Below, in pieces: positions 17 to 53,850 of a stretch of 60,126 nt of DNA. Position 1 is the first letter of the stretch. Each line of letters opens with the position of its first letter. Made by a program: the position numbers and the translations under genes. The stretch comes from Octopus sinensis (taxonomy: Eukaryota), in contig NW_021832573.1 of assembly GCF_006345805.1 (NCBI RefSeq), positions 1 through 60,126 on the forward strand, given 5' to 3'. Under the pieces are notes generated by a model that had not been told where the DNA came from, searched no databases, and worked only from the letters and a program-made list of their open reading frames with translations.

Positions 17-408
17 ATGGTTTCAAATGGCCAGCAAATTCGGGGAGGAAGTAAGTCGATTGCATCGATCCCAGTGCTCAACTGGTACTTATTTTATCGA
101 CCCCGAAAGAGTGAAAGGTATAGTCAATCTCGGGGGAATTTGCAGCTGATCGGTTTGTCCGGCGCGGTAACAATTCTGCCTGCTCGCCACTTTGTTTCTG
201 CTCGTAATAATACTTTCTACTATAGGCGCAAGGTCTGAAATCTTGGGGAGGGACATAGTCGATTACATCTACCTCAGTACTCAACTGGTACGTATCCTAT
301 TGACCTTGAAAAGAAGGAATTAAAAGCCGATTTCGGTAGAATTAGAACTCAGAATGTGGAGACTGACGAAATATCCCTAAGCATTTTGCCCGTCGTGCTA
401 ACGATTCT
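17..408 (-). mobile_element. Two tandem decayed tRNA-derived SINE copies (family A, (ATT)n-type tail)
   Basis: Match the family A body seen intact at 409-640 and 53238-53466 (minus-strand gcctttcatcctttcggggtcgataaa-like motif); tail reads tttctactataggcgcaagg on +. Confidence 0.7.
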
Positions 409-640
409 TATTTCTTTATTGCCCACAAGGGGCTAAACACAGAGGAGACAAACAAGGACAGACAAACGGATTAAGTCGATTATATCGACCCCAGTGCGTA
501 ACTGGTACTTAATTTATCGATCCCGAAAGGATGAAAGGCAAAGTCGACCTCGGCGGAATTTGAACTCAGAACGTAACGGCAGGCGAAATACTTCTAAGCA
601 TTTCGCCCTGCGCGCAAACGATTCTGCCAGCTCGCCGCCC
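409..640 (-). mobile_element. tRNA-derived SINE family A with Tx1-like 3' tail
   Basis: Minus strand: A-box-like ggcgagctggcagaatcgtt, B-box-like gagttcaaattcc, central gcctttcatcctttcgggatcgataaattaagtacc, tail gtgtttagccccttgtgggcaataaagaaata. Confidence 0.85.
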
Positions 641-1001
641 TCTGCTAGTGTCAATAATAACTCTTTCTACTCACAAGGCTTCAAATTTTAAGGGAGAGAG
701 CTGACCGATTACATAGGGACCAGTTTTTAACTGTTCTATTATCGATCCTTGTGTCAACGAAAGCGTTGTAAACGAAACTTAGTAGACGTGGTGGTCCGAT
801 ATCTGTGTGTATGTTTCTTGTGCATGGGTGCCTGAGTTTGTGTGTGTATATATACACGCGCACATTCACACACATCTTTCATCCTTTCGAGGGTCGATAA
901 AATAAGTACCAGTCAAGTACTGGGATCAACGTACTGGGATTAACTTGCCGCCGCCCCGTAAAAATTGCTGACCTTGTGCCAAAATTAGAAATAATTGTTA
1001 T

Positions 1002-1900: not shown

Positions 1901-1937
1901 TATATATATATCATCATGATGTGTATATAGACAAATG

Positions 1938-2687
<750 letters not shown>

Positions 2688-6240: not shown

Positions 6241-6454
6241 TATTGGGTTGTCCGGAAAGTTCGTGCCGATTTCATAGTAGCTTACCTTTCGACTTACCCT
6301 TCTGGGAAGAAGGTGTTTTCAAGTTAAAGGAAAGATGGAGACGCATTGTGCAACAAAATGTTTCATATTTGGTTGATTAAAAATGTATTGGCAAGTATTT
6401 ATTGACCTTTTTCTTTCCTTTAAATATCGGCACGAACTTTCCGGACAGCCCATA
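6241..6454 (+). mobile_element. Mariner-derived MITE (internal deletion derivative)
   Basis: TIRs ttgggttgtccggaaagttcgtgccgat / atcggcacgaactttccggacagccca flanked by TA; interior equals the 3' end of the mariner at 44370-44520. Confidence 0.85.
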
Positions 6455-10257: not shown

Positions 10258-11697
10258 ATGAAATATTGCCTACACAAAGTTTTATATATTCTATATATTT
10301 TGTTTGCACTGTGCTCACAAAGCGAAATATTTGTGAATATCGGCAACGGAAAAAAAATCTATTTAAATGAATTTCATCTCATTATAAATAAATTTGATAA
10401 ATATATATATATATATATAATAAATATATATACCCTGTGGATTAAAGGTGTCTGTGTTAGATATTTCACCTCATTTACATTGCTAATGAGTTCAACAATA
10501 ACAACAAAAGAACAATTTCTTACTTTCTCGTACACTTTTGTATTTTTGTGACTTTATAGAATTACTGATTTTATTATTAAATAAGAAATATTCTCCTGAG
10601 AATAAAATTAACCAGACTTGGTTCTTTTATCTACAAAGAATGGAGGAAAACTTTCTATATTTATTCTCTATAGAATTGATATGTGTGTCGTTGGTGTGAT
10701 TGCTGCTACTGTTGTAGCAATGGTGTTGTAGCTTGTTTTTTTTTTGTTGTTAGTCTTGTCGATGTTACTATTCTTAACACTGGTGAAGGGTGTGTGGCTT
10801 AGTGGCTGGGGGTATTTGGCTCACGATCGCAAGGTCGTGAGTTCAGCTCTCGGCGGCGCGTTGTGTCCTTGTGCAATCAGCCGCTAAAGATCTGGTATTT
10901 CCAGATTTTTTTGAAAACGGCCGGTTGCAGGTATCCAATGATACTTGAGGGACGCTCCCCCCACCCAAGTGTCACCTGTGCCTGGAACCGGGCCATATTA
11001 AGACGAACTGTCCCCAGGACCAAAGTAGGGTACTGGAGCAGTTAATACAAGTAGCACCCCTCCTCCTTTGGAGGGAGAGATGAAGGTAGTCGAGGAGGTG
11101 GAGACCTCCTCGAAAAAAGGGGACAAAAGGAACAAGGTGGGCAGCAATGGTTGCCCACCGAAGGACCCCAAAGCTGCAGGAGGGAGGGAAGATGGTGGTG
11201 TGTTTATGTCCCCGTAAGTTAACGGTTCAGCAAAATAGCCCGATATAATAAGTACTAGACTTACAAAGATTAAGTCCTGGAGCCGATTTGCTCGACTAAA
11301 GGTGGTGCTCCAGCATGGCCGTAGTCAAATGACTGAAACAAGTAAAAGAATGTATTGAATACTTATATCTTTCATGCTTAAATGTTCATCTTTTATTCGC
11401 TCCTTTGTTTTCTCTTTTCTTCTTTCACATTATTATATTTTTTTATTTAATTTTATTTGTAGCTTTATATATACTGAACGACACTAAAGTTCACTGTCGC
11501 CATGGTTGTAAGTTTGCTGACGTAGTTCTGCCGCTACTACCACTGCTGCTGCTGCTGCTGCTGTTCTTAATGAATACTAAGTAAACTGTGGATGCGAACC
11601 ATTTGAATCTGAAACTATTGCAGGTTCGAATCATGCTGGAATTACCAGGCTCGACTGCTTCATCATGTCAGTAGCTGGTTCGAATCACATCGAGACC

Positions 11698-11931
11698 TAT
11701 TTCTTTACAACCCACAAGGGGCTAAACACAGAAGGGACAAACAAGGACAGACAAACGGATTAAGTTGATTATATCGACCCCAGTGCGTAACTGGTACTTA
11801 ATTTATCGACTCCGAAAGGATGAAAGGCAAAGTCGACCTCGGCGGAATTTGAACTCAGAACGTAACGGCAGACGAAATACGGCTACGCATTTCGCCCGGC
11901 GTTCTAACGTTTCTGCCATCTCGCCGCCTTT
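11698..11931 (-). mobile_element. Full-length SINE family A (Tx1-like tail) with 15-bp target-site duplication
   Basis: aatcacatcgagacc at 11683-11697 and 11932-11946 flanks a complete copy. Confidence 0.9.
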
Positions 11932-12133
11932 AATCACATCGAGACCATCAATTGTTACATCGCCAAAAGAGTGAAGTAATTGACTTACTACTGACAATGA
12001 GTTTTAGAGAAGCTACAATCAAATCTGTCGGCTCGTGTTCATATTGTCATCAAGCCACCAAGAATATAGTTTTTCTTCTTTTTATCATAAATCCTTCATA
12101 ACGTATATCTCTTTCCTCATTGACAAGTTAATA

Positions 12134-12395: not shown

Positions 12396-12854
12396 ACATA
12401 TGTAAATGATATTGGTTTTCAACGTATTGGACCAGATGTTGTCTAATGATCTGATGGTCCAAGCTTTAAGCTGATTGAATATCAGCCTAAGACGTCATGT
12501 TGGTTTGTGTGCAGTCTTCGTAATAATTTTCATGAGCTTAGCACGCATAATACAAGTCACCCGCTTTCCATAGTGTTTAAGTCAAATGATGTCAATGGTC
12601 ATCTTCGAACCCGAAGGACGAACATTCATTCATTCATTCAAGTAACCGAGAACACAAATATAAATAAAAGCTACAAATATATATATAAATCAAAGAATGT
12701 AAGAAATTGAAAAGGCGATGCGTGGTATACCGTGGTATACCGTGACCCTGTTCAGACAACGTCGAGCAGATGAAGGTGTTATTTGTGCAGGTCTATCGGC
12801 AAAAGTTGAACACTCAGACGTCGTCTTCGACGGGAGAGCCAATTATGTATATAT

Positions 12855-13075
12855 ACTCTTTTACTCTTTTACTTGTTTCAGTCATTTGACTGCGGCCATG
12901 CTGGAGCACTGCCTTTAGTCGAGCAAATCGACCCCTGGACTTATACTCTGTAAGCCTAGTACTTATTCTATCGGTCTGTTTTGCCGAGCCGCTAAGTTAC
13001 GGGGACTTAAACACACCAGCATCGGTTGTCAAGCAATGTTGGGGGAGGACAAACACAGACACACAAACACACATG

Positions 13076-13153
<78 letters not shown>

Positions 13154-13324
13154 TATATACATATATACGAGGGGTTTCTTTCAGTTTCCGTCTACCAAAT
13201 CCACTCACAAGGCTTTGGTCGGCCCAAGGCTATAGTAGAAGACATTTGCCCAAGGTCCCACGCAGTGGGGCTGAACCCGGAACCATGTAGTTGGTAAGCA
13301 AGTTATACTACAGCCACCCTGCCT
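12855..13324 (-). mobile_element. CORE-type tRNA-SINE family B with internal (TA)/(CA) microsatellite
   Basis: tRNA-like head, accttgggcaa CORE-like motif, tail tgactgaaacaagtaaaagagtaaaagag; many copies in window. Confidence 0.85.
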
Positions 13325-13393
13325 ATAGCCTAATATATATAGATAGATAGATAGATAGATATAGATAGATAGATAGATAGATAGAGAAGATAG

Positions 13394-13444
<51 letters not shown>

Positions 13445-13451: not shown

Positions 13452-14272
13452 GTGAGTATGTTGTCTAAGTTACGCAAAAATGAAAATAACACTGAAATTT
13501 CATTTTAAGAGATACATTTATCAAAATAGCATTAAAATATCTTGAAGTATTAAAGAGTAAATTTATTCAATAAAATCCCCATTCGCTTCAACCACGGCCT
13601 CCAGGCGACTTCGGAATCTCCTGCAACTCTTCTGGACAGTCTCCTTGTTTAAGTTGGTGAATACTGCTATAATCCTTGCCTTCAGTTCATCTTTGGTGCT
13701 ACAAGGAGTTTTGTTGGTTTCTCGCTCAACTGCGCTCCACATAATCAAGGGGGCTGCAGTCTGGGGAGTTAGGTGACCAGATATTAGGGGTGATACGGTC
13801 GCAGCAATTGTCAGACGGCCATGACTGGGTTCTCCTGCATGTGTGGTATGGTGCAGAGTCCTGTTGCCAGACATAGGGTCTTCCAGCAGTCACCCTCTTG
13901 ACCCAGAGCAGCACTACCTCCTCCAGGCACTTGATGTAGACCTCCGCGTTGAGTCTGAGGCCGTGTGAGAAGATGAATGGAGGCGTAACGTCTCCATCAC
14001 TACTGACCACTCTAAACATCATGATGTTGACTGGATGTTTGATTTTTATCACTCTCTGCAAGATTTTTATCACTTCTACCGTGAATGCCAAGCAGTACAG
14101 CATGCCATTTCCAAATTTCTGGCAGAGTAATTGTGTCATGGTGCTGTTTTTTCTCACAGACCGTGCCCAACTAACCCAACCAAACCGTGTAGTCGACAAA
14201 ATCAAAAACAAGCAATGCACATGCACGAAATTGAAAATATAAAATGGCGACAATTTACCTATTGCACCCTAT
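13445..14272 (-). mobile_element. Internally deleted Tc1/mariner-superfamily transposon, DD37D (maT) type, transposase pseudogene
   Basis: VWQQDSAPYH...WSPNSPDCSPLDY with 37 residues between the second and third D; frameshifted C-terminus WSAVERETNKTP...RLEAVVEANGDFIE; terminal tatagggtgcaataggtaaattgtcgcca on minus. Confidence 0.85.
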
Positions 14273-15058: not shown

Positions 15059-15157
<99 letters not shown>

Positions 15158-15723: not shown

Positions 15724-16264
15724 CTTGGAAATGATTTTAAAAAACATTAAAATAGTATCTGTTTAAAGAAAGCTAAAATATAAATACTTACTCTACAAAC
15801 AACTTTCATTCTTAAAATCACATTCAGTTAAAAATATTTCTAAATTATTAAAATACTGTGTACGTCAAAAAGACGGCGTTTCTTGTATTTTCCTTACTAC
15901 GTGTGTGTATATGTCACAGATAGCGGACGTGTGTTTGTGTCGATTGACACGCCATGACACGCGTTGATTGACACGCCATTATATGTGTGTGTATTCTGTA
16001 TGTGTTTGTGTTGACGTCACAGAAGCCGTGTTTTATTTTGTCAAGAAAAAACAAAGATTGTTTAATCGTTTTCCTTAATAAATAGAGGTCCAGTTATCAC
16101 ATGAATTTGTACTGCACTGCCAAAGTTAAGTATGAAAATAAATATGCAAAAAAATTAAGATTAAAAGGAGTTTTAGAGATGTGTGTATATGTATACACAT
16201 GTAAGTAAATATTAGATATATATTATATATACATGTATGCATATTATATACATATATATTTTTT

Positions 16265-16676
16265 TTTATTCCTTTCCTTGTTTCAATCATTTGTCTGCGG
16301 CCATGCTGGAACACCATCTTAAAGGGGTTTTAGAGGAATAAATCGACCCTAGGACTTATTTCTTAAACCTGATACTTATTCTATCTGTCACTTTTGCCGA
16401 ACCTCAAAGTTACAGGGACTTAAACACACCAACACCGATTGTCAAGTGGTAATGGGAGGACAAACACAGATTCATAGAAACATGCATAAACATATATATA
16501 CATATATATATACGACAAGCTTCTTTCAGTTTCCGTCTACCAAATCCATTCACAAAGTTTTGGTCGGCCCGAAGCTATAGAAGAAGGCAATTGCTCAAGG
16601 TAACAGACAGGCGGACTGAAACCGGAATCATTAGGTTGGAAAGCAAGCTTCTTACCACACAGCCACGCTTGCGCCT
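16265..16676 (-). mobile_element. CORE-type SINE family B (older copy)
   Basis: Alignable by eye to 12855-13324. Confidence 0.8.
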
Positions 16677-16698
16677 ATACATTCATATACATACATAA

Positions 16699-16746: not shown

Positions 16747-18164
16747 GCTTACATAATTCATACGTACATATATGTGTGTGTATATTTACATACACATTCA
16801 TATACAGACATATAAGTGTAAGTATATATATATATATATTCATATACATACTTATGTATGTATGTAATTACATTCATATACATATGTATGTATATGTGGT
16901 ATTCTGCAGTTTCCCGCAACAAAACTCCACTCACAAGGTTTTGACAGATCTAAGGGAGAAGTGAACTCGGTCACATACCTTACACTAGTATTTATCATAT
17001 TTTCACTTCTCCGGGAGGTTGAAAGGTAAATTTATCTTCAGTGAGTTTTGTTTGAATTGAGAACTTAAATACGGTTAATGACTAGCGTTAAGCCTTCTAT
17101 GTATCACTGTAGTGATTATTGGTCAACATTCTCTGTCGTTTGTATTTATAAATATTTATATAAACCAACCACAAACCAGAATGCTGTTTCATCATTTCAA
17201 AAGCCTGCTTTCACTCAGATCTCTCAACGGATGGCTTCACACTGCTTTCGGAAAAATATTTATTCTATTTATTCTATTTATTCTAAGACGAACGAAAAAC
17301 CCTCAAGGAACTACATTTTAATGAAATCTCAATATTTCAGTGATTTTAGCGAATGGTTTATTAAATGATTACACCTGGGATATTGGTTAAAGCTGCATAT
17401 AAAGAACTTAAGAACTGATTTTAACCGATTGACTATTCAGTCACTATTTTTGTCCTGTCTTTCTTCTGTTATTTTGTTATTAATACATGAAATTTAGAAT
17501 CTAATATCGATTTTTTTTCTCTGCCTTGTTTGTAACAATATCGCTTGAGTGGACAAATTTAATGTTAAATTCACACAATCTCTTTGAGAATTGCGGTGCT
17601 ATACTGTACATAAAAAGGACACCTGTATCTTGGAATGGAAAACAAAATAGCAGGATGACTTTCTTCTTGTTTGTAAGAGCTAAAACCTTGTCCCTTGTTA
17701 CACAAATAACCTCTTTTTATAAGAATCTGATGCCTTTTTAGTAGGGGTTATTAGTGGGTTAGAACATTTCAAAATTCTCGGTTTAAATTAATTTCGATAA
17801 TATTGGCAATTATATTGAATGTTCAATCACACAAGCCACAATTAAGGATGCTTATTGGTGGTCGTTAAATTAGTTATAATTAGCAGCTGAATTCTCCTCA
17901 TATCATACTTTGCCATCTTAATGGAAAAAGATAAAGGAGACATTGTTCCAGAACCGTGTCAGGATCATCTTCGATGATAGTTTTGCTCCAGCGGGTCTGT
18001 CCTAGGGTTATATAACAACAGTCACAGCAAAAATAATGGAAACATGAACAATAGCGATAATAACAGTTTCTGATTTAGGCCGGCGATTTTTGAGATAACT
18101 TCGACTCCAGGACTTGAAAGAATAAAAGGCAAAGTTGAACTTGGTGGGATTGAACTCAGAACGT

Positions 18165-18575
18165 CGGGTGGATCGAGTTCCCGCCGCCAATCAAAGTCTT
18201 CGCCTGTCTCTGCGGCCCCTTCCATCTGTCCTTCTGCAACGGCGCTTGCGGTGGATGGCCATGCATGTAGGCGTCCGGTGGGTGAACTGAGCCGTGATGT
18301 CCTTCTCCCAACTCCACTTCCCAACTGGCGGAAACGCGCGGGCGGGCAGCTGAAGACCTGGGCTGCGACGATCAAGGAGGACTTCTCTGTGCTCACGGGT
18401 CCGCAGGTGGTCGGCCTGCGCCGATGGAACCGTGACTGGCTCGCTATCTCCAGGGAACTGGCACAGGACCGTCGTGCGTGGGCTGCCATGGTTCGAGATG
18501 CCTCGAGGGTGTTAGAAGAAGCCGACTCAACCCGCCCAGGGTGAATGTCGCCACAAGTACAAGTAAGTAAGTAAA
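18165..18575 (+). mobile_element. 3' end of an RTE-clade LINE
   Basis: RRLRW.GH...RKRAGGQLKTW...LAQDRRAW motifs, stop at 18544, tail acaagtacaagtaagtaagtaa. Confidence 0.8.
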
Positions 18576-18599: not shown

Positions 18600-19350
18600 T
18601 GTGCCAATTTTTGGCTCAAGATCAGCTATTTTAAGGGGACGGGTTAGTGAACCTTATTACTTGACTGGTACTTCATTTTATCGACTCCAGAAAGGATGAA
18701 AGGCAAAGTTGTCCACGGTGGAATTTGAGCTTAGAATGTAAAGAGCTGCAAGAAATGTCGCTAAGCATTTTTTGTCCGACGCGCTAATGATTTCGGCAGC
18801 TCACCGCCTTAAGATTAGTCGGCTCTATAAAGGGGTTGAACTTGCGACACTCGGACTAAAAGTTCGCTACACTACCGACAGAGAAATGAAGGCAACAATA
18901 GTAATAGTAATCCTTTCTACTATAAGCACAATGCCTGAAATTTGGTGGGGGGGACTAGTCGATTACATCGACCCCAGTGTCTCACTGGTACTCATTTTAC
19001 CAACTCCGAAAGGATGTAAAGCAATGTCGACCTCAGCGGAATTCGAACTCAGAAGCATTTCGTGCTTACGATGCTGCTAGCTCGCCGCACTATAACAATA
19101 ACAATGCTAATCCCTTCTACTATAGGCACGAGGCCTGACATTTGAGGGAGGAGGACAAGTCGATTGCGTCAACCCCAGTTCATCACTGGTACTTTATTTA
19201 TTGACCCCGAAAGGATGAAAAGCAAAGTCGACATCGGCGGATTTTGAACTCCGAACGTAAAGACGGACGAAATGCCGCTAAGCATTTTACCCGGCGTGCT
19301 AACGACTCTGCCAGCTCGCCGCCCTATAACAATAATAATAATAATAGCAA
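18600..19350 (-). mobile_element. Three tandem SINE family A copies (about 18600-18810, 18910-19090, 19110-19325) separated by AAT/AAC-rich tails
   Basis: Repeated aggatgaaaggcaaagtcgac...gaactc...gccagctcgcc blocks. Confidence 0.8.
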
Positions 19351-24162: not shown

Positions 24163-24711
24163 TACGTATGTGTTTTATCTGTCCTTCTGTCTGTGTTTGC
24201 ATCACCATCACCAAACTGTTAGAGAACCAGCGGTTCGGCAACGGGGATCAATGTAATTGGTATCAGACTTAAAAAGAAAAGTAAGTACTGCAGTCGAATT
24301 ATTCGACTAAAAATGCCCCAGCATGGCCAAAGTACAATGACTGAAATAAGTAAACGAAGGCAAAAGAAGAAAGGAAAGCATCTCGTTTGAGCAACTAATT
24401 TGATCAAACTTGAGAGTGTGAAAATATAAGATATAATTAATATTCCTAGTGAAATGTGTGACAGGAAATATAAGCAGACATTTCCTTCCTAAGAAACATT
24501 GGGGAAAATACTGCTTTGAACTGGATCAAGATCAAAGACATAAAAGTTAATGTCTACTTGGAACGAAAATCAAAATAGAAGCAATGTACGTATATATCAA
24601 TGTGTGGGTTTGTGTCTATGTGTGTGTAGAAATAAATGTTTGTATACTATAGCCTCTGGCCAAACAAAGCCTTCTGAGTAGATTTGGTAGACGGAAACTG
24701 AAAGAAGCCCG

Positions 24712-24763
<52 letters not shown>

Positions 24764-26486: not shown

Positions 26487-26892
26487 GCGCAGGAGTGGCT
26501 GTGTGGTAAGTAGCTTGTTTACCAACCACATGGTTCCGGGTTCAGTCCCACTGCGTGGCACCTTGGGCAAGTGTCTTCTGCTATAGCCCCGGGCCGACCA
26601 ATGCCTTGTGAGTGGATTTGGTAGACGGAAACTGAAAGAAGCCCGTCGTATATATGTATGTATATATATGTGTGTGTGTGTGTCTGTGTTTGTCCCCCTA
26701 GCATTGCTTGACAACCGATGCTGGTGTGTTTATGTCCCCGTTACTTAGCGGTTCGGCAAAAGAGACCGATAGAATAAGTACTGGGCTTACAAAACAATAA
26801 GTCCCGGGGTCGAGTTGCTCGATTGAAGGCGGTGCTCCAGCATGGCCGCAGTCAAATGACTGAAACAAGTAAAAGAGTAAAAGAGTAAAGAG
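26487..26892 (+). mobile_element. CORE-type SINE family B, near-consensus copy
   Basis: gcgcaggagtggctgtgtggtaag...ggttcagtccc...accttgggcaagt...tail aagtaaaagagtaaaagag. Confidence 0.9.
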
Positions 26893-27344: not shown

Positions 27345-27730
27345 TGGTGACTGTGTAATAAGAAGTTTGCTTCTCAACCACATTGTTACGGGTTCAGTTC
27401 CACTGCGTGGTACCTTGGGCAAGCGTTGTCTACTATAGCCTCGGACCGATCAGAACCTTATGAGCAGATCTGGTAGACGGAAACTGAAAGAAGCCTGCTG
27501 TGCATATATATGTGTGCCTTTGTATCTGTGTTTATCCCTCACCGCCACCGCTTGACAACCGGTGTGGGTGTGTTTACTTCCCTGTAAATTGGCGTTTCGT
27601 TAAAAGAAATGGACAAAATAAGTACCAGGCTTTAAATAGACAAGTTCTGGAATCGATTCATTTGATTAAAAGTTCTGGAAAATGGTGGCCCAGCATGACC
27701 GTAATTTGATGAATGGATCAAGTAAAAGAC
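27345..27730 (+). mobile_element. Older SINE family B-related copy
   Basis: ggttcagttccactgcgtggtaccttgggcaag...ggtagacggaaactgaaagaagc. Confidence 0.7.
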
Positions 27731-29858: not shown

Positions 29859-30610
29859 TGATCAAAATAAAAACATGATGCCAAGGATTCAGCGGTACAT
29901 ATGTTTCGGGCCTTTATTAGACAGATTTATAACAATGCATAATGTATGTCTGTGGCCTTCTTCAGCCGCGCACAACAGCTTCCACAAGGACATGTGTTAC
30001 ATCAAAAATTCTTGGTTGGGGATACAAATCCTCTCATTCGCGTACGACATAATGCGGCAACAGCATAGAATTGAAGCGTCCATCTCTTTCTTCTCTCAAT
30101 GTAAAATGAGGAAATTTGGATGTTGAAGTAATGTAAATAAATAAATACATATATAGACGTGAAGATGGAGGGGCGAGAATTCAGGACGAGGGATAAAAAA
30201 TGTATGTATAAAAAGTGTAAGTATAGAAAAATATAAAAATATAGAGTATAAAGATATAAAGGGATATAAGGAGATGTAAAGGGGGTATAAAGAATATAAA
30301 GAAATATAAAGAAATATAAATGAATGTAAAGGCATAAGGTTATAAAGTAAAAATAGAAATAGAAATAAAATTAAAAAGTAAAAAAATAAAAATAGGAATA
30401 AACATGATAAAAATGTAAAAAAATGTAAAAAAATATAAAGATAAGGGATGTATAGAGGTTACGGACCAAACATGGTGGTCAGGAGATTGATAAAATTTAG
30501 TTGTAGAAGTTTTGGGTGTCAATAAATCAACAGGGTCGTCTGGGGACCTAGTGTGTTGTAAATCAGAGCTGTTGAGCGTTTAATCTAGTTCTTTGAATTA
30601 ATTGGTCATC
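29857..30610 (-). mobile_element. Probable Penelope-like element 3' end with HHR (left arm of large inverted repeat plus extension)
   Basis: HHR at 29892-29969 on minus strand; ends in (TA)n; 29857-30361 is reverse-complementary to 31144-31648. Confidence 0.55.
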
Positions 30611-31143: not shown

Positions 31144-31725
31144 TATTTCTATTTTTACTTTATAACCTTATGCCTTTACATTCATTTATATTTCTTTATA
31201 TTTCTTTATATTCTTTATACCCCCTTTACATCTCCTTATATCCCTTTATATCTTTATACTCTACATTTTTATATTATTCTATACTTACACTTTTTATACA
31301 TACATTTTTTATCCCTCGTCCTGAATTCTCGCCCCTCCATCTTCACGTCTATATATGTATTTATTTATTTACATTACTTCAACATCCAAATTTCCTCATT
31401 CTACATTGAGAGAAGAAAGAGATGGACGCTTCAATTCTATGCTGTTGCCGCATTATGTCGTACGCGAATGAGAGGATTTGCATCCCCAACCAAGATTTTT
31501 TGATGTAACACATGTCCTTGTGGAAGCTGTTGTGCGCGGCTGAAGAAGGCCACAGACATACATTATGCATTGTTATAAATCTGTCTAATAAAGGCCCGAA
31601 ACATATGTACCGCTGAATCCTTGGCATCATGTTTTTATTTTGATCAATTTACTCCACCACCTACACCACCAAACGGTATACACAGGTGCTTATAATTATC
31701 AAGTACTCACCCCGTATTTCTCTCT
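31144..31725 (+). mobile_element. Probable Penelope-like terminal repeat with HHR (right arm of large inverted repeat)
   Basis: gcgg-CTGAAGA-A-GGCC...GGCC-C-GAAA-CATATG-TA-ccgc at 31536-31613; ends at (TC)(TA)n. Confidence 0.6.
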
Positions 31726-32213: not shown

Positions 32214-32260
<47 letters not shown>

Positions 32261-32293
32261 GTAGGTAGGTAGGTAGGTAGGTAGGTAGGTAGG

Positions 32294-32332
<39 letters not shown>

Positions 32333-32353
32333 GTAGGTAGGTAGGTAGGTAGG

Positions 32354-32392
<39 letters not shown>

Positions 32393-32510
32393 TAGATAGA
32401 TAGATAGATAGATATAGATAGGTAGGTAGGTAGGTAGGTAGGTAGGTATTTGGTAGGTAGGTAGGTAGATAGGTAGGTAGGTACGTAGGTAGGTAGGTAG
32501 GTAGGTAGAT
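32213..32510. repeat. Compound (GATA)n/(GGTA)n microsatellite at the 3' junction of the long Tx1 copy
   Basis: Direct reading. Confidence 0.95.
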
Positions 32511-32809
32511 AACTTTTTATTGTAGCCACACAGGGCTAAACAGAATAAAAATGGATGAAATACAATATAGAATTTTTTTCTTTTCGAGGTGGGATGGGTG
32601 GGGCACAAAAACAAACGTTTGATCAATAGGGATCTGTGAGTTGTGTGGTGTATAAAAAAGCAATATATATATATATATATATATATATAAGATTCACAGT
32701 TTAGGTGTAGCCTTGGAAAGAAAAACCTACAAAAAAGACCAAGGTCACCTCAGACAATTCGAAAAAGAACACATGAGTAAGTCGCCTTACTTCTCGTTGT
32801 CTCTTTTGG

Positions 32810-35800
32810 TTACAGATTTATGCTTAAAATAGTGTCGTCTTTCATACTGACCATTTTTGCCACTTTTACCCACTTTTTATTAAAACATTCGTTCGACAAA
32901 GCCTTCCTCTCTATTCTCATCCTCCTTTTCAAATAGTACTTGAAAAAGTTGACGAGAGACTGACCAGAGAGGAAGGTGTTTGTTTGCAGTCCTTTCAAAC
33001 GCGTCCACCACACACATTCTTTCGCCATAGCCATCAGCGTAACGAAAACCGTTTTCCCTTCCCGTTTAAAGGAAGGTGGTGGAACGATATCCACGATAGA
33101 CTCGGCCGATAGGCGAGCCCGACCTACACGTGACAATAGCTGTTCGACGAAGGACCACAGCTCTGAAATATCTGGACACTGCACGAGTGCGTGCAGAACG
33201 GTTTTGTCGCTCTGACCGCATCTCGGGCAGGTCGGTCCGGTGATGGTTTTCGAACCGTGTCTGTAGCTCTTCTCTCGAACAGGTAGTGCGTCTCGATAGC
33301 ACTGCCAAGCCAGGAATTTCTGGAAGTTATCCATAGGCCCCTGCCCGAACGTCGTCCTGAACAGGCGGGTTAGGAATTCCTCGTCGACGCCCAGGTTTGC
33401 CCCGAGTGTGTCGTCGGACCTCCCCTCCACTAGTCCTCTATAGAACGCTTTAGTCGTTTGTAAGTTGCACAAGTTTGACCCCGGTCGGCATAGCTGCTGT
33501 AGAGCTTGGCGACACTCTCGGTGTCAATCGCCCAGTTTCGGTCTCTTTTTGATACACGTTTGCAGTTCGGTCAGTGAGACGAGCTGCGGGAAGTCGCGCC
33601 TCACAAACGGCGCCCACACCTGTTCACCGTCGTCGATGAAGTTCCAGAGATGTCGCAGTCTCAGCGCATGCCTGCGCATCATCAACCACGGCATGCCTAG
33701 TCCTCCATTCAACGGATGTTGACAGCAAATGGACTTCCTCACAATCGGAACGCCACCCTTCCACAGGAAGCGGAAGTGTATGCGTTCCAGTTTGGTGATG
33801 GTGGCGTCGGGACAAGGTACGACGGTCAGGCGTTAATCGATGACGGATGCGATGTACGCGTTCGCCACCTCCGCCCGGCCTTTTAGAGACAGCTTTCTCT
33901 CGGCCCATGTTTGGCTGAGAGCGACCACTCTACTCGTGATCTCGTCCCAGTTCTTATCCGGACTGAACCAGACCCCGAGCAATTTAACCGGTCCGTCCGT
34001 CCAGCGTCCCACTACTGAGCCGCAGTCGGACGGCATGGGCTTGCTTCTCCAGGTGCCGAGTAGCAAACCCACTGACTTTTCCGGGTTAATCTTTGCTCCC
34101 GTCACCGTTTCGTATTTTCTTAGTGTCTCGCCTATCATCTTGATGTGTTTGTCGCTCGACACTATGACGGTGACATCGTCCGCATATGCCGACACGCTCG
34201 TCCCGCAACCCAGTTCCCGTGGGATGCCCCTCAGTGTCGCCAGCTTCCGCAGTAGCGGCTCGAGAGTCAATACATACAGAAGCGCCGACAGGGGACACCC
34301 CTGACGGACCGAACGCGTGATGTCAAACGGTTTCGACAGGTGACCGTTCACCCGAATCACCGATCGGATGCCGTTATACAAGGCAGCGATCCAACCGCGG
34401 AAGACGGGACCGAAGCCAGCCGCCCTGAGGACGGCCGCCAAGTACCGATGGTGGACCCTATCGAAGGCTTTAGACTGATCCAAATTTATCAGCGCCCCAC
34501 CCATGCCAGGATCCTTAACTACCCTGTCCACAATGTAGCGCATCAGATGGAGGTTGTCATGTATGGTTCTGCCCGGCACGGCGCATGTTTGCGCCCTGTC
34601 GACCAGTTTACCAATGACAAGCGCCAACCTCTCGGCTATTACTTTGGCCAAAATTTTCAAATCTGCGTTGAGCAGAGTGATGGGCCTGAAATTATCTATA
34701 AAATTCCCCTTGTTTGGGTCTTTCTTCGGCAACGTCACTGCACCTCGGCTCACGAAACCGGGGATTCTCCCGTTTTGTTGCCAGTTGCAGTAGACTGATG
34801 CCAAGAGGTCGCCAAACAAGTCTGGCATTTGACAATACAGCTCGTAGGGTAAACCATCCAATCCAGGCGACTTATCCCTCGCGCAGCCAACCATCACATC
34901 CCACACGTCAGCGGCTGTGATGGGTCTTTCACAACACTCCGCCTTCTCTTGCCGAGAGCCGCGGCAGGTCGGTCAGGTAGGCACTGAAATCCATCCCGGG
35001 TTCCGACCCACCACTCGCACCAAACAGTCGAGCAAAGTGCTGTTGAAAGGCCTCACACATCCTTTCGGATCTATTAGAGACCGAATGGTGGCTCTGTTGC
35101 CACGCTGCGCCTCCGCTACCCCCGGGCCTCTCACGCGCAGCTTCGATCCTTCGTTCCTTAAGGCACGCATTTTAGCTCTGACGACGCACCTTCGTGCTTG
35201 GCGTTGAGGTGTTGGTCGAGGGCCATCCTCGCAGCCAGCACGTTGGTTGCGCTGCCAGTGGTAAGTGCCCTTCTAGTTCTTAACCAAGTCTCCCTCTACT
35301 CTATTTCGTTCTATCGCTAATTCCTTGCTAAACCTAATTGATTCCGATTTTATTGCCATTTTCAGGGCGTACCACCAGCGGTTGTTAACGACGGCTCTCG
35401 TCAGCGCCCTCTTAATTAACTCGCTAATCCGGTTCCTGTAAACCTGTCGCGCTAACAGCGACGTGTTCAGTTTCCAGTAACCGGGACCCTGCCTATGTGT
35501 TTTATCTAAGTCGAGCGTACACGTAACAAATTTGTGATCTGTGTAGCTGACTATTTTAAATTGTGGACATCCTACACTATCCCTATCCGCTGTCCTGCAT
35601 AGAATTCTATCTAGATAAGATCTCGACGATCCGACGCGGTTTGTCCAAGTCCACGTTGGCACGTTCGGATGGTCGAATCGGAACCTGTCAGACAAATGGA
35701 AACGTCTGAGCAGGTCTTTGAGGCTCTTACATCCCCTTCTATTCCTATCCCTTCCCACATACTAGATGCGTGTCCAAGGTAGCGTTCCAATCCCCTACTA

Positions 35801-36220
35801 ACAGTAAAGTTCTAGACGTACCCAGGAAACCTCTAGACGTCTGAAGAAATCCGCCCGACCCGTTAAGGACGGTGCATAAACTGCCATCAGACGGAATGCA
35901 CACCCATTTCTGCCATCCACGTCCAAGACAACCAGCCTACCCTCCGGGTCTAGGAATATTGCTCTTACTTTTACATTTAGACTCTTTCGAAAAAGCACCG
36001 CGGTACCTCCACCACCCATGTTCGGCAGACAGGGAGAAAAATAAATGTCAAATTGATTGCCAAACATGGACTCGAGGGCCCGCGGCTTACTGAGTCTGGT
36101 TTCACTGATAGCTACTATATCCACATTCAGTGACTTGATGTCGTTTAGAAGGTAACCTTGCTTGCAAGCCGACGCCAAGCCACGCGCATTCACACAACCT
36201 AATTTAAGCATACTTGACAT
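32810..36220 (-). pseudogene. ORF2: apurinic-like endonuclease + reverse transcriptase + C-terminal Cys/His domain, several frameshifts and stops
   Basis: VNARGL, VAISET, VYAP, GDWN, SYLDRIL, YTDH, GPGYWKLNTSLL; KSPGLDG, NFRPITLLNADLKILAK, LDQSKAFDRV, VRQGCPLS, AYADD; CPRC...LHALVQC. Confidence 0.93.
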
Positions 36221-36277
36221 TTACGAAAATTGTGTTCTACACACTACATTAGAAGAGACAAGAGGCAAGAGGGGAGG

Positions 36278-38065
36278 TCACTTACTCATTTTAAAAGTTT
36301 CATTTTTTTCTTCTTCTTTTGTATTGTTTTTGATGAGGTGTTTGTATAGTTTTTTCGACAGGTATCGTTGAAACCCGCCTACCGCATTCGGAAATATTGT
36401 TTTCAGTATGTGGTGTTGTGCTTGTGTTATGTGTAAAATTCTGATGTGTTTCGGTGGTGTGGTGTGCGGATGATTGTTTGTCTTAAATTCATCTTCACAG
36501 ATGACCGTGCTGGATGTGATGTAGTCCATTAATTCTTTATTGTCTGTGTCTATTGCAGTTAGTTGTGTGTGTGGTTTTACGGGTTCGTTGCTTTTTTGAT
36601 TGTCTAGGGGGATGTTGTCCGGAGTTAGATATCTCCCTGCTTTACTTCCTTGTTTGGTGGATTTTTTGGATCTTTTTCTTTTACCCCCTGTGGCTTTTTG
36701 CCATTCCGTCGAACTTTCGTCGTCCGACGTATCAGTATGGGGTAGAGGCAAAGCATTTGCATTACTATGTATGCTTGTATAAATTGTTGATGTTTTGTGC
36801 GGTGTTTGTGTTGTTGTGGTGTTAGGGGTAGAATTTGTCTTCTCGTCACTGTTTTCTGTCTTTTTAATTGTCGTCCTCGGTGTGGGTGTTGGTCTATTTT
36901 TTGTTGATTCAACATGTTGAATTGGTTGTGACGTCAACGGTGATTGTGTTGGTACTGTTTCTTTTCTTGGTGATGTTGTTGGGGTTTGTTTGCTGGTTTG
37001 TTGTTTTTCTTGGCATTGTTCCATAATTGAGTGTGTTGGTGTTGGTGTTGGTGTTGGCAACAAGGGTTTTTTATTTGTTTTCTGATTTGTTCTTTCTTGT
37101 TTTTTCTGTACCAGAGCGCACTTGGCAATCAAATGTTCGGGGCTGCCACATTTGTAGCATCTAGGCTTTTTGCCTTCTGCTACAACATATAGGCATTGCC
37201 CATTTTCCAAGTGGATCTTATCCGGTAGGCTCTCGATAGAGGCCCCCTCAATCTGTATGGTCACCACTACTGTCTTCCCACCCCAAATGTCGCCAAGGTA
37301 CACGGCGGTTTCCAAAATGTTGATTTTTTTAAATGGAACAGATTGCCCCTGTTATCCATTTGTTAGGAATCTCGGGAGGTACATTTTTTAGTAATAGTGA
37401 TTCGACTCACTCTCTGGTTTTTATGTATGGGACCATGATGATTTCATCATTTCCCAGAGACTCAGTAGAGTGATTTTGCCACTTCCTGGTTAGGGAAGCG
37501 GACCACTACTGTGTTAAACTGGGGACCCCCGTTTATATATTCTTTTCTTTCATTATGTTTTTTAAGCATTTTTCTACATCCGTTTTTGTAATCTGTTCAT
37601 TTGGTTTTTTGTTTTTTCTAATAATTTTATATATTTGTCTTATTTTCATTTCTTTTCTTGCTTTATATGTGTTGAGGTTTATGTAGCACTAAATCTTGCC
37701 CACTGGTTGTAAAGAGAGATCTTTGTTTCTAAAGTTCTTCGTTCGTGAATGTAAAATCTCCTTTTCTTCTGACCAGAGGTGTCAGCGAAATTTGTTGGTG
37801 TGTAATTCTGTTATATTAACATCTTCACTATTAGATAGTTCATTTTTATTGTTGTTCTTGTTGCTGTTGTTTTTGTCAATAGTTTTCGTGTGAGTTTTAT
37901 TTTTATCACTTATGTTGGTCCTGGTGGTGTGGTGGTGGTGGTGGTGGAGTGGTGGTGGTAGCAGTAGTAGTCTCGTTGTTGCTGTTGTTAATGGTGGTGG
38001 TGGTGGTGGTGACAGGGCTGTTACCGCACGTGGTTGCAGCGTTCATTCGACCGTTATTCATGTTG
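36278..38065 (-). pseudogene. ORF1, gag-like with CCHC zinc knuckle and low-complexity T/P/K region; 5' part frameshifted
   Basis: ORF 36278-37315 contains CYKCGSPEHLIAKC (CX2CX4HX4C); upstream extent inferred from base composition. Confidence 0.75.
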
Positions 38066-38368
38066 CACTTTGCGTGCATGAGTTCTTTTTTCTTCTCCTA
38101 GCGTTTCAAACTAGGAAAAATGCTGGTCCAATAAAGGAACGCGACCAGCGTTTACAATAAAATTTCTCGACATTTTCTAATGTCGAGAAGAAAATCACAG
38201 AAATGAAATGGGGTTGAAACTGCCCCTAGGGGCGAATTCCTCCTTGGAAAAGCACTCAAACGAAAGTTGGGTGCCTTACACACCTTATTTGCAAAAATGT
38301 ACACAAATATGGGCTATAAATAGTCAAAATAAACGATTACCTTCGGCCGAAGTGACAGCACGTCCGTC

Positions 38369-38447
<79 letters not shown>
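38369..38447. repeat. Pure (GATA)n array between two Tx1 copies
   Basis: Direct reading. Confidence 0.97.
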
Positions 38448-40673
38448 GAGTTTCTTTATTGGCCACACAGGGCTGCACACAGATGGGACAAATTACAAGG
38501 TAGAGCTTTTCTTTTGGGGGATGAAAAAAACAAAAAACAAAAAACAAAAGAAACAAAAAAAATTTGGCGTAGGTTTTCGATCAAAAGGGATCGTAAAAGG
38601 GAAAAAAGAAACAAAAGAAAAGAAAAAGGAAAAAAGGTGAAGAGGGAAAAAAGCGATCAATAGGGATCGTGTATCACAGTGTCATGATGTACGGTGTAAG
38701 GGGAGAAGCAGATAAGGTTTATTCTTGGGAAGAAAAGCCTACGAAAAAGACCACGGTAACCTCGGTCAATATTGTTATATGTTACCACATTTGTTTGCAA
38801 GTGGGTAACCCTCTGTTTTCAATTTCTGGGTTCATAGGATTATGCTCAAGGTGGCTTCGTCATTTTTTTAAAACATTCACTAGACAAAACTTGCCTCTCT
38901 ACTCTCACTTTCCTTTTCAAGTGGTACTTGAAGAAGTTGATGAGAGATTGACCAGAGAGGAAAGTGTTTGTCTCCAATCTTTTCAGACGCGTCCACCAGA
39001 TACATTCTTTCGCCATAGCCACAAGGATGATGAAAATAGCTCTTCCTTCCCGTTTGAAGGAAGGAGGCGTGACAATATTGACGATAGACTCAGCTGATAA
39101 ACCGACATCGTCCCACACGTGACAGCAGTTGTTCTACATAAGCCCACAAGTCGGAAATTGTTGGACACTGCACGAGTGCGTGCAGAACGGTTTCGTCGCT
39201 CTGACCGCAGGTCGACCCCGCGTTTCTCGAGCCGTGTCTGTAGAGCTTATCCCGAACGGGTTGCGCTTCTCGGTAGCACTGCCAGGCCAGGGATCTCTGG
39301 AAGTTGTCCATGGGCCCTGGCCCGAAAGTCGTCCCGAACAGGCGGGTCAGGTATTCCTCGTCGATGTCCAGGTTCGCCCCGAGCTCGTCGTCGTACCTCC
39401 CCTCCACTAATCCCCTATAGAATGCTTTGGTTTTGATAGAGTCACTCAAGTTCGACCTAGGACGGCAGAGTTGCTTGAGAGCAACGCGACACTCGCGGTG
39501 CCATTCGCTCTTCCTCGGCCTCTTTTTGATCCACGACTGCAGTTCGGTCATGGAGACGAGCTGCGGGAAAGCGTGTCCCACAAACGGTGACCACACCTGT
39601 TCACCGTTGTCTACGAAGAGCCTGAGATGTCGCAGTCTCAGCGCGTGTCTGCGCATCATCAACCACGGCATGCCCAGTCCTCCTTTTAACGGGTGTTGAC
39701 AGCAAATGGATCGCCTGACCATCGGGCGCATCCTTTCCACAAGAAGCGAAAGAGAATGCGTTCTAGTTTAGTGATGGTAGGGTCGGGACAAGGCGACGGT
39801 CTGACGGTAGTAGATGACGGACGCGATGTACGTGTTCGCCACCTTAGCCCGACCTTTTAGGGACAGTTTCCTCTCGGCCCATTGCTGAGCGAGAGTGATC
39901 ACCCTACTCGTTATCTCGTTCCAGTTCTTCTCCACTTGGAGGTCCGGACCGAACCAGACCCCGAGCAACTCGACCGGACCGTCGGTCCAGCGTCCCACAT
40001 CGGAGGCGCTGGTGGACGGCATGGGCTTGCTTCTCCAGGTGCCTAGTCGCAAGCCCACTGACTTTTCCCGGTTGATTTTCGCTCCTGTCACCGCTTCGTA
40101 GTTTTTCAGTGTCTCGCCGACCTGCTCGATGTGCTCGTGGCTAGACACTATGACGGTGACGTCGTCCGCGTATGCAGACACGCTCGTCCCGCATCCCAGT
40201 TCTCGCGGGATGCCCCTCAGAGTCGCCAGCTTCCGCAATAGTGGCTCGAGAGTCAATACGTGTAGAAGCGACGAGAGGGGACATCCCTGACGGACCGAAC
40301 GTGCGATGACGAAAGTTCTCGATAGATGTCCATTTACGCGAATTACCGAACGGATCGCTCTGTACAAAGCGGCTATCCAGCCGCGGAAGACGGGACCGAA
40401 GCCAGCCGCTCTGAGGACAGCCCCCAAGTATCGATGGTCTACTCTATCGAAAGCTTTCGATTGATCCAAATTGATCAGTGCCCCACTCATGCCAGGTTCG
40501 TTAACTACTCTGTCTATGATGTAGCGCATCAGATGGAGGTTGTCATGGATGCTCCGGCCCGGCACGGCGCACGTTTGCGCCTTGTCGACCAGTTTCTCGA
40601 TGACAAGCGCCAACCTCTTGGCTAACACCTTGGCCAAAATTTTCAAGTCTGCATTAAGCAGAGTGATGGGCCT
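38448..40673 (-). mobile_element. 5'-truncated Tx1/L1-type LINE, second subfamily (RT to 3'UTR), within (GATA)n
   Basis: RPITLLNADLKILAK...LDQSKAFDRV...RQGCPLS...AYADD; frameshifts; ~33-bp deletion near 38863 relative to the 1978-2587 copy; followed by (GATA)/(GACA)n 40674-40755. Confidence 0.92.
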
Positions 40674-40680
40674 AGATAGG

Positions 40681-40728
<48 letters not shown>

Positions 40729-40955
40729 CAGACAGATAGACAGACAGACAGACAGCTTGGTCTATAGGGTCGTAAATTCATAATTATGTGTGTACTTTTT
40801 CTGTGAATCTTGTGATGTCTTGAATATGTGCAATGCACATATATCCATGTAGTAAAGGAATCCATCATCTGGTTAATGAGGTTTGTGCCTTTTATGCATA
40901 ATGTTCTTATGACGCATATAATCGATGTCTAGACAAAAAGTCATCTAGGTTCGTT

Positions 40956-43020: not shown

Positions 43021-43463
43021 CATATATATATACATATACACATATACAAAGACATATATACGTACATAGATACATACATACATGCATACATACACACACG
43101 CACACACACACTCATATATATATATATAGATCCATACATATATATATATATATATGTGTGTGTATATGTATTCTGATAAGCAATTCATACAAACTATACG
43201 CTCATGAACAAATGCATGATGACATAACCCTACACATATACATACTAGTGTGCATGAATGCTCACATGCACACACACACACATGTTGTATGAACACAAAA
43301 TACTTTGCTCAAATGCTCACATGCATGAATGAATGCCTACCGATATGCCCACATACGTTATCTATCTATCTACCTATCTATCTATCTATCTATCTATCTA
43401 TCTCTATATATCTATCTATCTATCTCTCCATCTATCTATCTCTCTCTCTCTCGCTCTCTCTCA

Positions 43464-43506
<43 letters not shown>

Positions 43507-43560
43507 TATATATATATCCATCTATCTATCTATCTCTCTCTCTCTCTCTCAATCTATCTA

Positions 43561-43591
<31 letters not shown>

Positions 43592-44932: not shown

Positions 44933-44965
<33 letters not shown>

Positions 44966-53237: not shown

Positions 53238-53850
53238 AAGCGACAAGCTGGCAGAAACGTTAGCACGCCGGGCGAAATGCTTAGCGGTATTTCGTGCGTC
53301 TTTACGTTCTGAGTTCAAATTCCGCCTAGGTTGACTTTGCCTTTCATCGTTTCGGGGTCGATTAAATAAGTACCAGTTACGCACTGAGGTCGATATAATC
53401 GACTTAATCTGTTTGTCTGTTCTTGTTTGTCCTCTGTGTTTAGCCCCTTGTGGGTAGTAAAGAAATAGGTATTTCGTCTGCCGTTATGTTCTGATTTCAA
53501 ATTCCGCCGAGGTCGACTTTGCTTTTCATCGTTTCGGGGTCGATAAATTAAGTACCAGTTACGCACTGGGGTCGATCTAATCGACTTAATACCTGTACCT
53601 GTCCTTGTTTGTCCCCTCTGTGTGTAGCCCCCTGTGGGCAGTAAAGGAATAAGAAACGTCAGCACGCCGAGCAAACTGCTTGGCAGCATTTCGTCCGCCT
53701 TTACGTTTTGGGCTCAAATTCCGACACGGCCGACTTCACCTTTCATCCTTTTTAGGTCGATAAAATAAGTACCATTCGAGCACTGAGGTCGGTGTAATCG
53801 ACTTACGCCCTCCCCCAAAGTTGCAGGCCTTGTGCCAAAATTTGAATCCA
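53238..53850 (+). mobile_element. Trimeric/nested SINE family A (two Tx1-tailed units followed by an older unit)
   Basis: Units about 53238-53467, 53468-53651 and 53652-53850; the second and third start inside the tRNA-like head. Confidence 0.85.

What the first reader, a model, noticed from the sequence alone, without database searches (positions are those of the whole stretch)
409..470. tRNA-SINE shares its 3' end with the GATA-associated Tx1 LINE (candidate SINE-Tx1 partnership)
Seen on +: SINE end tttctttattgcccacaaggggctaaacacagaggagacaaacaagg (411) versus LINE end tttctttattggccacacagggctgcacacagatgggacaaattacaagg (38451; also 1980 and 32514). The same tail occurs at 11698, 53430 and 53610. 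Other family A copies carry an unrelated tail. Known: shared 3' ends mark the LINE that mobilises a SINE, usually CR1, L2 or RTE. Inference: one SINE subfamily switched partner to a Tx1/L1-clade element, an uncommon pairing.
Basis: partly seen in the sequence, partly recalled or inferred. Interest (0 to 1): 0.76.

Follow-up and report, generated by a model that had tools for sequence, protein, structure and literature searches.

The report
Octopus SINE borrows Tx1 LINE tail
A very abundant short mobile element in what is likely an octopus genome ends in nearly the same 42-50 bases as a LINE of the L1 group (likely Tx1), whose enzyme likely copies it; in the papers read here such a shared L1-group tail was described only for plants and an alga.

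Summary
Four young SINE copies and three LINE copies end in the same motif: 35 of 42 bases identical for the quoted pair, above all 2000 shuffles in 7 of 8 SINE-versus-family-A pairs, and still the best non-SINE match in the window without the A-rich end. The LINE has a zinc-knuckle ORF1, APE, L1-like RT and zf-RVT, and (GATA)n at 6 of 6 junctions: L1 group shown, Tx1 inferred. The tail swaps in at about 474 on a SINE body shared with older copies; one copy has a 15-bp TSD; the family is very abundant in four organisms' runs. Best reading: the SINE took its tail from a Tx1-lineage LINE and is copied by that lineage's ORF2p. Against the exact partner: 0 of 4 SINE copies lie in GATA, and the shared hairpin is weak. 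In papers read, L1-clade tails were listed only for grass and algal SINEs, and the crocodilian SINEU-Tx1 link has no shared tail. Repbase, Dfam and SINEBase could not be checked. New variant of a known kind.

The parts
410..641 (-). Full-length SINE, LINE-tailed subfamily (type 1)
   Evidence: 88-92% identical to copies at 11698, 53240, 53468; A-box-like and B-box-like motifs in the head
411..457 (-). Tail block shared with the LINE 3' terminus (42 nt ungapped at 411-452; hairpin at about 421-433, then A-rich end)
470..476 (-). Tail exchange point: type 1 and other-tail SINEs diverge here
   Evidence: alignment A1; loose end before 474 reads as the other tail in 4 of 4 runs
11698..11931 (-). 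Full-length type 1 SINE with a 15-bp target-site duplication (11683-11697 and 11932-11946)
53240..53467 (+). Type 1 SINE, first unit of a three-unit array
53468..53651 (+). 5'-truncated type 1 SINE joined directly to the preceding tail
   Evidence: the same junction recurs in 4 of 4 runs
200..409 (-). Older SINE with the other tail, headless, joined directly to the type 1 tail at 410
53652..53850 (+). Older SINE with another tail, headless at the same head position as the copy at 409
19100..19327 (-). Full-length SINE with the other tail (reference for type 2)
38450..40672 (-). LINE family A, 5'-truncated inside RT; 3' terminus is the best match to the SINE tail
   Evidence: RVT_1 E 2e-31, zf-RVT E 2e-05 below cut-off
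1979..2584 (-). LINE family A, short 3' fragment
   Evidence: 95.3% to copy A over 170 coding nt
32512..38368 (-). LINE family B, apparently full length but broken by stops and frameshifts: zinc-knuckle ORF1 (about 36278-37351), ORF2 (36211 to 32810: APE, RT, zf-RVT), 3' UTR ending in the same hairpin
38369..38447 (.). (GATA)n array between the 5' end of LINE B and the 3' end of LINE A
32214..32511 (.). (GATA)/(GGTA)n array at the 3' end of LINE B
40673..40752 (.). (GATA)n array at the 5' truncation of LINE A
1927..1977 (.). (GATA)n array at the 3' end of the short LINE A copy
2585..2687 (.). (GATA)n array at the 5' truncation of the short LINE A copy

Best explanation
A young, very abundant SINE subfamily carries the last 42-50 bases of an L1-group LINE (likely Tx1) as its tail, and that LINE lineage's ORF2 protein likely recognises this tail and copies the SINE by target-primed reverse transcription. 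Shown: homology of the two termini, the exchange point at about 474 on a body shared with older SINEs, the LINE's domains and its GATA-specific insertion, one 15-bp TSD. Inferred: (1) the tail moved from LINE to SINE by template switching or recombination; (2) RNA polymerase III transcribes the SINE from its A/B-box head; (3) ORF2p binds the small terminal hairpin plus A-rich end, that is stringent recognition as in L2 and in the grass L1 lineage; (4) the working partner is probably a sister or ancestral family of LINEs A and B rather than family A itself, because the SINE does not enter GATA arrays and its tail matches A upstream but B next to the hairpin.
For: Terminus-to-terminus homology beyond chance, within the 35-61 bp, 72-95% range accepted for bivalve SINE-LINE pairs (PMC11481361 section 13). 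LINE families A and B are 81.7% identical over 1827 nt of ORF2 and 84% in RT protein; blastn finds only a 62-nt block in their 3' UTRs, yet the multiple alignment shows the terminal hairpin motif kept: it looks constrained and older than the SINE burst. Type 1 copies are 91.3-96.7% alike (6 pairs), the two family A copies 95.3% over 170 nt: compatible ages, on very few copies. Across 208,000-512,000 contigs per run in 4 runs of 4 organisms the commonest change in the tail (446, 87-89% of depth) moves it one base closer to the LINE (36 of 42, my arithmetic), and the change at 421 (45-52%) turns a G-C stem pair into G-U. A hairpin forms at the same place in the minimum-energy fold of the last 40 nt of 7 of 7 termini. 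15-bp TSD, reached by 6 of 1299 random flank pairs. RT closest to human L1 ORF2p among solved structures (E 6e-34 against 5e-21 for R2).
Against: 0 of 4 SINE 3' ends abut GATA while 6 of 6 LINE junctions do; in crocodilians a shared target was the evidence for the SINEU-Tx1 link (PMC4494074). The hairpin is weak: z-scores -2.4 to +0.9 for 56-nt termini, 2 of 4 SINE tails and LINE 38450 fold otherwise at that length; the consensus structure is only -0.66 kcal/mol, with 2 invariant pairs in the hairpin because SINE and LINE stems differ by one register. The variant at 419 (42-47%) loses a match. A TSD was found for 1 of 4 type 1 copies; the others lie in arrays. The match to family B is short and not significant for 1 of 4 tails. 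Only three LINE ends were seen; other LINE clades of this genome were not available for comparison. No LINE-type loose end was among the 24 shown of 1973.
Confidence: 0.68

Rival explanations
1. The tail is LINE-derived but a passenger: it was picked up by template switching and the SINE is copied through its A-rich end by relaxed, mammalian-L1-like recognition, by this or any L1-group enzyme.
For: Weak hairpin with a register shift; no GATA targeting; L1-clade LINEs rarely donate tails (3 of 58 pairs, PMC3747384); SINEU is linked to Tx1 without a shared tail (PMC4494074).
Against: The motif is kept between LINE families whose UTRs have otherwise diverged; none of the 7 termini has a long poly(A); no stem-position change other than the G-U wobble is among the 40 variants shown of 127.
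Confidence: 0.14
2. The direction is reversed: the LINE lineage captured a SINE 3' end, and the SINE is moved by another, unseen LINE clade.
For: The upstream half of the shared block is in family A only; both SINE tail types carry a hairpin with a similar loop, which could be old in the SINE lineage; SINE and LINE insertion sites differ.
Against: The terminal motif is in both A and B, 18% apart in ORF2, deeper than the 3-9% among type 1 SINEs; the type 1 tail starts abruptly at about 474 on an older body; known pairs run LINE to SINE (PMC3747384, passages).
Confidence: 0.12
3. Chance or convergence on a pyrimidine-rich stretch plus a polyadenylation-like signal.
For: Part of the match is the A-rich end; the region is T/G/C-biased.
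Against: 24-26 of 30 without the A-rich end against a window-wide background maximum of 19; 0 of 2000 shuffles; both matches are terminal.
Confidence: 0.03

Closest known systems
Grass ZmSINE2/ZmSINE3 with LINE1-1_ZM, and Chlamydomonas SINEX-3_CR with L1-1_CR (PMC3747384, PMC3472496)
   Same: tRNA-type SINE sharing a short 3' end (about 45 nt in grasses) with an L1-clade LINE, with a predicted stem-loop
   Different: Here the host is an animal, the LINE is target-specific (GATA arrays) and likely Tx1, and neither element has a long poly(A) or poly(T) end
Crocodilian SINEU with Tx1-Mar (PMC4494074)
   Same: SINE inferred to be moved by Tx1 machinery; TSDs of 10-16 bp; tandem insertions
   Different: SINEU has snRNA heads and poly(A), shares the target with Tx1, and no LINE sharing the SINEU-1 3' end was found; here the tail is shared and the target is not
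Octopus OR1/OR2/OK SINEs (Ohshima and Okada 1994; not held, seen only as cited in PMC4824008 and PMC4758252)
   Same: tRNA-derived octopus SINEs; OR1 or OR2 is cited as a CORE-SINE; this family may well be one of them (recalled, untested)
   Different: No partner LINE for them appears in the 58-pair table read; no sequence comparison was possible
Mollusc SINE-LINE pairs: bivalve CR1, CR1-Zenon, L2, Nimb (PMC11481361); squid Ceph-SINEs with RTE (PMC5786205)
   Same: Modular SINEs that exchange tails; shared ends of 35-61 bp at 72-95%; tandem SINE arrays
   Different: No L1 or Tx1 partner among them ('Tx1' occurs 0 times in either main text)
Microsatellite-targeting Tx1 families Kibi, Koshi and crocodilian (TTCC)n/(TTTC)n families (PMC4494074)
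   Same: APE-type L1-group LINE inserted in a microsatellite, repeats on both sides
   Different: Target here is (GATA)n/(TATC)n; I saw no such Tx1 target in the passages read (listing), but did not see that paper's figure 3

Membership tests
L1 group (L1/Tx1) LINE | APE endonuclease at the ORF2 N-terminus | tested here: met
   Exo_endo_phos E 2.5e-07 at 35810-36211; a full-length homologue maps 36208-32828
L1 group (L1/Tx1) LINE | RT of L1 type | tested here: met
   RVT_1; best solved relatives human L1 ORF2p E 6e-34, R2 5e-21; no CR1, L2 or RTE RT appeared in that list, so those clades were not compared directly
L1 group (L1/Tx1) LINE | C-terminal zinc-binding domain | tested here: met
   zf-RVT E 1.8e-06 above cut-off in family B, E 2e-05 below cut-off in family A
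Tx1 clade | Type I ORF1 (zinc knuckle with or without RRM) rather than Transposase_22 (PMC5203782) | tested here: inconclusive
   one zf-CCHC, E 0.0023, just below cut-off; no RRM or Transposase_22 hit; no ORF1 homologues found
Tx1 clade | Target-specific insertion (among APE LINEs only Tx1 and R1, PMC13295347) | tested here: met
   (GATA)n at 6 of 6 junctions of 3 copies, including two different 5' truncation points
Tx1 clade | RT phylogeny with named Tx1 references | not testable with these tools
   no hit was named Tx1; named hits were unnamed or hypothetical proteins of an argonaut, a cuttlefish, turtles and fish
tRNA-derived SINE (SINE2) | [quoted passage not shown] | tested here: met
   A-box-like (1-2 mismatches; the best hit in copy 11698 fell at another place) and B-box-like (2 mismatches) motifs in 4 of 4 heads against a recalled consensus
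tRNA-derived SINE (SINE2) | Homology of the head to a tRNA gene | tested here: inconclusive
   ARAGORN 0 genes; Rfam 0 matches at E up to 5 on one copy; host tRNA genes not available
tRNA-derived SINE (SINE2) | Short, non-coding, high copy, TSD, 5' truncations | tested here: met
   about 232 bp; 14 stretches aligned in the window; 208,000-512,000 contigs per run; 15-bp TSD on 1 of 4 type 1 copies
Stringent SINE-LINE pair | Shared 3'-terminal sequence | tested here: met
Stringent SINE-LINE pair | Conserved stem-loop with compensatory changes | tested here: inconclusive
   hairpin at the same place in 7 of 7 40-nt folds but weak and register-shifted
Stringent SINE-LINE pair | Shared insertion signature | tested here: not met
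   0 of 4 SINE ends in GATA against 6 of 6 LINE junctions; so the GATA family itself is not filed as the proven partner
Stringent SINE-LINE pair | Concurrent activity | tested here: inconclusive
   91-97% against 95%, from 4 and 2 copies
Stringent SINE-LINE pair | Tail-dependent trans-mobilisation | not testable with these tools
   needs an assay
Octopus OR1/OR2 CORE-SINE | Sequence identity to the published consensus and CORE domain | not testable with these tools
   paper not held; search for OR1 and OR2 with octopus found 0 papers

The most novel reading that the evidence does not exclude
First animal SINE with an L1-group (Tx1) tail: one of the most abundant octopod SINEs is driven by a Tx1-lineage enzyme that still reads a specific 3' hairpin, so stringent RNA recognition survives in animal L1-group elements. 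In the boldest form the GATA-targeting enzyme itself moves the SINE, and target choice follows the read-through RNA beyond the shared tail, sending LINEs into GATA arrays and SINEs into other SINE heads.
Probability: 0.4. Interest if true: 0.72.

Novelty: new variant of a known kind. Interest (0 to 1): 0.58.

Why it matters
Ohshima's survey found only 3 SINEs with L1-clade tails against more than 800 L1-clade families, all in grasses and a green alga, and left open whether strict 3'-end recognition is ancestral in the L1 clade and was lost in mammals and most plants (PMC3747384, PMC3472496). An animal pair with a 45-nt shared end gives a direct substrate to test that. It would also name a driver for part of the octopus SINE expansion (SINEs 11.6% of the O. 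vulgaris genome, L1-Tx1 with 13 recently active families, PMC13282606), and a SINE that shares the tail but not the target separates RNA recognition from DNA targeting in a site-specific LINE.

Tried and rejected
No whole genome is held, so no genome-wide consensus, age profile or TSD census. Collection scans gave no related DNA: tail pattern in viral contigs 0; relaxed tail pattern in metagenome contigs 13 stretches, 0 of 13 with an RT or SINE match, all dropped as chance; RT in viral contigs 0 confirmed of 2; SINE core in prokaryote genomes and viral contigs 0. No RNA holder on record, and no RNA run was laid: nothing is said on expression. laid 4 of 24 listed runs on the SINE only; it showed 24 of 1973 loose ends, none LINE-type or GATA, which is no evidence either way; its depths are not copy numbers. 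No LINE end matching the other SINE tail in the window (4 tails tried). Protein searches gave no Tx1-named reference; the EN fragment had no solved relative. ARAGORN and Rfam do not see the head. Earlier scan notes: 4 look-ups, nothing. Rejected: GATA as the LINE's own 3' tail (it also flanks two 5' truncation points); the LINE end as a SINE inserted in the UTR (no SINE body upstream, motif in 3 of 3 copies of two families). 'TX1' in PMC4176376 is a mutant label, not the clade.

Full report
Host and setting. The window is repeat-rich animal DNA. The closest named relatives of its LINE reverse transcriptase are from an argonaut (69%) and a cuttlefish (50%), so an octopod host is likely; the species is not established. 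No whole genome is held. Evidence from outside the window comes from one laying of four public runs, coded as four organisms, on the SINE, and from protein and literature searches.

The observation. They are the reverse complements of 3' termini: the SINEs at 410-641 and 11698-11931 and the three LINE copies run on the minus strand, the SINEs at 53240-53651 on plus. SINE 410 and LINE 38450 share 35 of 42 bases without a gap (E 1.3e-07), about 50 with one gap. In 2000 dinucleotide shuffles per pair the four SINE tails beat every shuffle against LINE 38450 (4 of 4 pairs), were matched by 0, 1, 0 and 0 shuffles against LINE 1979, and by 0, 7, 3 and 72 against the divergent LINE 32512. Removing the A-rich end does not remove the signal: three 30-nt tails scanned over both strands of the whole window find the two family A ends at 22-26 of 30, next best 19. 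Eight other-tail SINE ends do not match the LINE ends (best 47 of 2000 in 24 pairs).

The LINE. The copy at 32512-38368 appears full length and is broken by stops and frameshifts. It has an ORF1 with one weak zinc knuckle, and an ORF2 with APE endonuclease, RT and zf-RVT. Among solved structures the RT is closest to human L1 ORF2p (E 6e-34; R2 5e-21). Copies at 38450-40672 and 1979-2584 form a second family (A), 81.7% identical to B over 1827 nt of ORF2. All three copies have (GATA)n on both sides, including two different 5' truncation points (6 of 6 junctions), so the repeat is the target and not a tail. Site specificity among APE LINEs is described only for Tx1 and R1 (PMC13295347, passage), and zinc-knuckle ORF1s in non-mammalian animal L1-group elements are described as consistent with Tx1 (PMC5203782, passages). 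L1 group is shown; Tx1 is inferred, since no named reference could be placed in a tree.

The SINE. About 232 bp, with A-box-like and B-box-like motifs (recalled consensus); ARAGORN and Rfam do not recognise the head. Fourteen stretches were aligned: head and body are shared, and tails diverge at about 474. In one search the loose end before 474 reads as the other tail in 4 of 4 runs. Type 1 copies are 91.3-96.7% alike over the body (6 pairs), other-tail copies 71% on average (7 copies), so type 1 is the young, derived form; the two family A LINE copies are 95.3% alike over 170 coding bases. The one free-standing type 1 copy has a 15-bp TSD (6 of 1299 random flank pairs reach that); the other three lie in arrays and gave none. 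laid 208,000-512,000 contigs per run. In the tail the window's base at 446 is the minority one (87-89% of depth read the other), and the majority base matches the LINE, giving 36 of 42 by my arithmetic; 421 varies at 45-52% between a G-C and a G-U stem pair; 419 varies at 42-47% and loses a match. Only 40 of 127 variant rows were shown.

Structure. The last 40 nt of 7 of 7 termini fold with a small hairpin at the same place: a 4-bp stem and 5-nt loop in the SINE, a 3-4-bp stem and 6-nt loop in the LINEs. It is weak. At 56 nt z-scores run from -2.4 to +0.9 and three termini fold otherwise; the alignment fold is -0.66 kcal/mol with two invariant pairs in the hairpin and one both-sides change in a lower stem. 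The better argument for constraint is that the terminal motif survives between families A and B, whose 3' UTRs otherwise share only a 62-nt block by blastn and a short palindrome. The other SINE tails carry a small hairpin with a similar loop in 4 of 7 folds by my reading, so they may not be wholly unrelated in structure.

How it most likely works. A SINE body acquired the 3' terminus of a Tx1-lineage LINE, likely by template switching, and has since been copied by that lineage's ORF2p through recognition of the tail (0.68). Direction LINE to SINE is favoured because the motif is shared by families more diverged than the SINE burst. The SINE tail also matches family A upstream and family B beside the hairpin. 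Either a sister family without GATA preference is the partner, or target choice follows the RNA read beyond the tail; the SINE has no internal four-T terminator, and co-transcribed target sequence is said to strengthen target-specific insertion in other LINEs (PMC4494074). That last idea is speculation. Rivals: passenger tail with relaxed recognition (0.14), reverse capture with another partner clade (0.12), chance (0.03).

What is known. Ten searches found no paper that describes a SINE with a Tx1-derived tail or a partner for an octopus SINE. PMC3747384 (passages and Table 1): 58 pairs, three with L1-clade tails (two grass SINEs, one algal), none Tx1, none octopus. PMC3472496 (passages): whether strict recognition is ancestral in the L1 clade is left as a model. 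PMC4494074 (parts 2-4 of 5): SINEU linked to Tx1 by shared target, no LINE sharing the SINEU-1 3' end. PMC11481361 (passages and section 13): bivalve partners CR1, CR1-Zenon, L2, Nimb; shared ends 35-61 bp at 72-95%; tandem SINE arrays known. PMC4824008, PMC4758252, PMC5786205, PMC7245038, PMC8967140, PMC4176376: passages only. PMC13282606 (part 1 of 3 and a supplement search): O. vulgaris SINEs 11.6%, mostly unclassified among recent families; L1-Tx1 80 families, 13 recently active. Ohshima and Okada 1994 on OR1, OR2 and OK is not held; the SINE family itself is probably one of these (recalled, untested). Repbase reports, Dfam, SINEBase, subscription papers and the supplements of the other papers were not seen and could already note this tail.

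Verdict. Real feature; new variant of a known kind (a stringent-type SINE-LINE pair with an unusual partner group). Interest 0.58. Boldest reading, the first animal SINE with an L1-group tail, functional and unpublished: probability 0.4, interest 0.72.

Noticed in passing
window 409/410, 53467/53468, 53651/53652: 3 of 4 type 1 tails are joined directly to a headless SINE, at two fixed head positions. The 183-nt tandem junction (591 to 409) recurs in 4 of 4 runs (7-13 contigs as a joint, 678-1487 as a loose end). Fits insertion into SINE heads with a homologous 5' join, template jumping, or unequal recombination. The SINE has no run of four T, so read-through transcripts are expected.
   Followed up: partly
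window 19100-19160 (-), 43862-43915 (-), 53140-53180 (+), 53812-53850 (+): The other SINE tails carry a 3-4-bp hairpin with a loop like that of type 1 and end in short (ATT)n-like repeats; at least two versions exist. Their partner LINE is unknown; it may be an older relative, so the switch could be between families rather than clades.
   Followed up: partly
window 38709-38770, 32697-32758, 2216-2278: A 62-nt block of the 3' UTR and a short palindromic motif downstream are kept between LINE families A and B (about 80%); the palindromic motif is duplicated in family A. Further candidate cis elements.
   Followed up: partly
window 32214-40752: Two LINE copies of different families lie head to tail inside one GATA array, both on the minus strand; three other GATA arrays (13335-13442, 15059-15157, 43359-43591) show no LINE end beside them.
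   Followed up: partly
window 12848-13327, 16253-16679, 26487-26890, 27347-27729, 47160-47585, 49052-49491, 54453-54989, 11191-11351, 24229-24713: Another repeat family of about 420 bp with an internal microsatellite, about 9 copies at 68-92% identity; class not determined.
   Followed up: no
window 29859-30192 and 31313-31646: Inverted duplication of 334 bp at 99.1% identity.
   Followed up: no
window 44019-46466: Tandem duplication with a unit of about 1.09 kb, 90-99% identity; a 151-bp piece also lies at 6300-6450.
   Followed up: no
window 18074-18544 (+) and 13726-14268 (-): Open frames that look from recall like an RTE-type LINE C-terminus and a mariner-type transposase fragment; neither had a Pfam hit at E 0.01.
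   Followed up: partly
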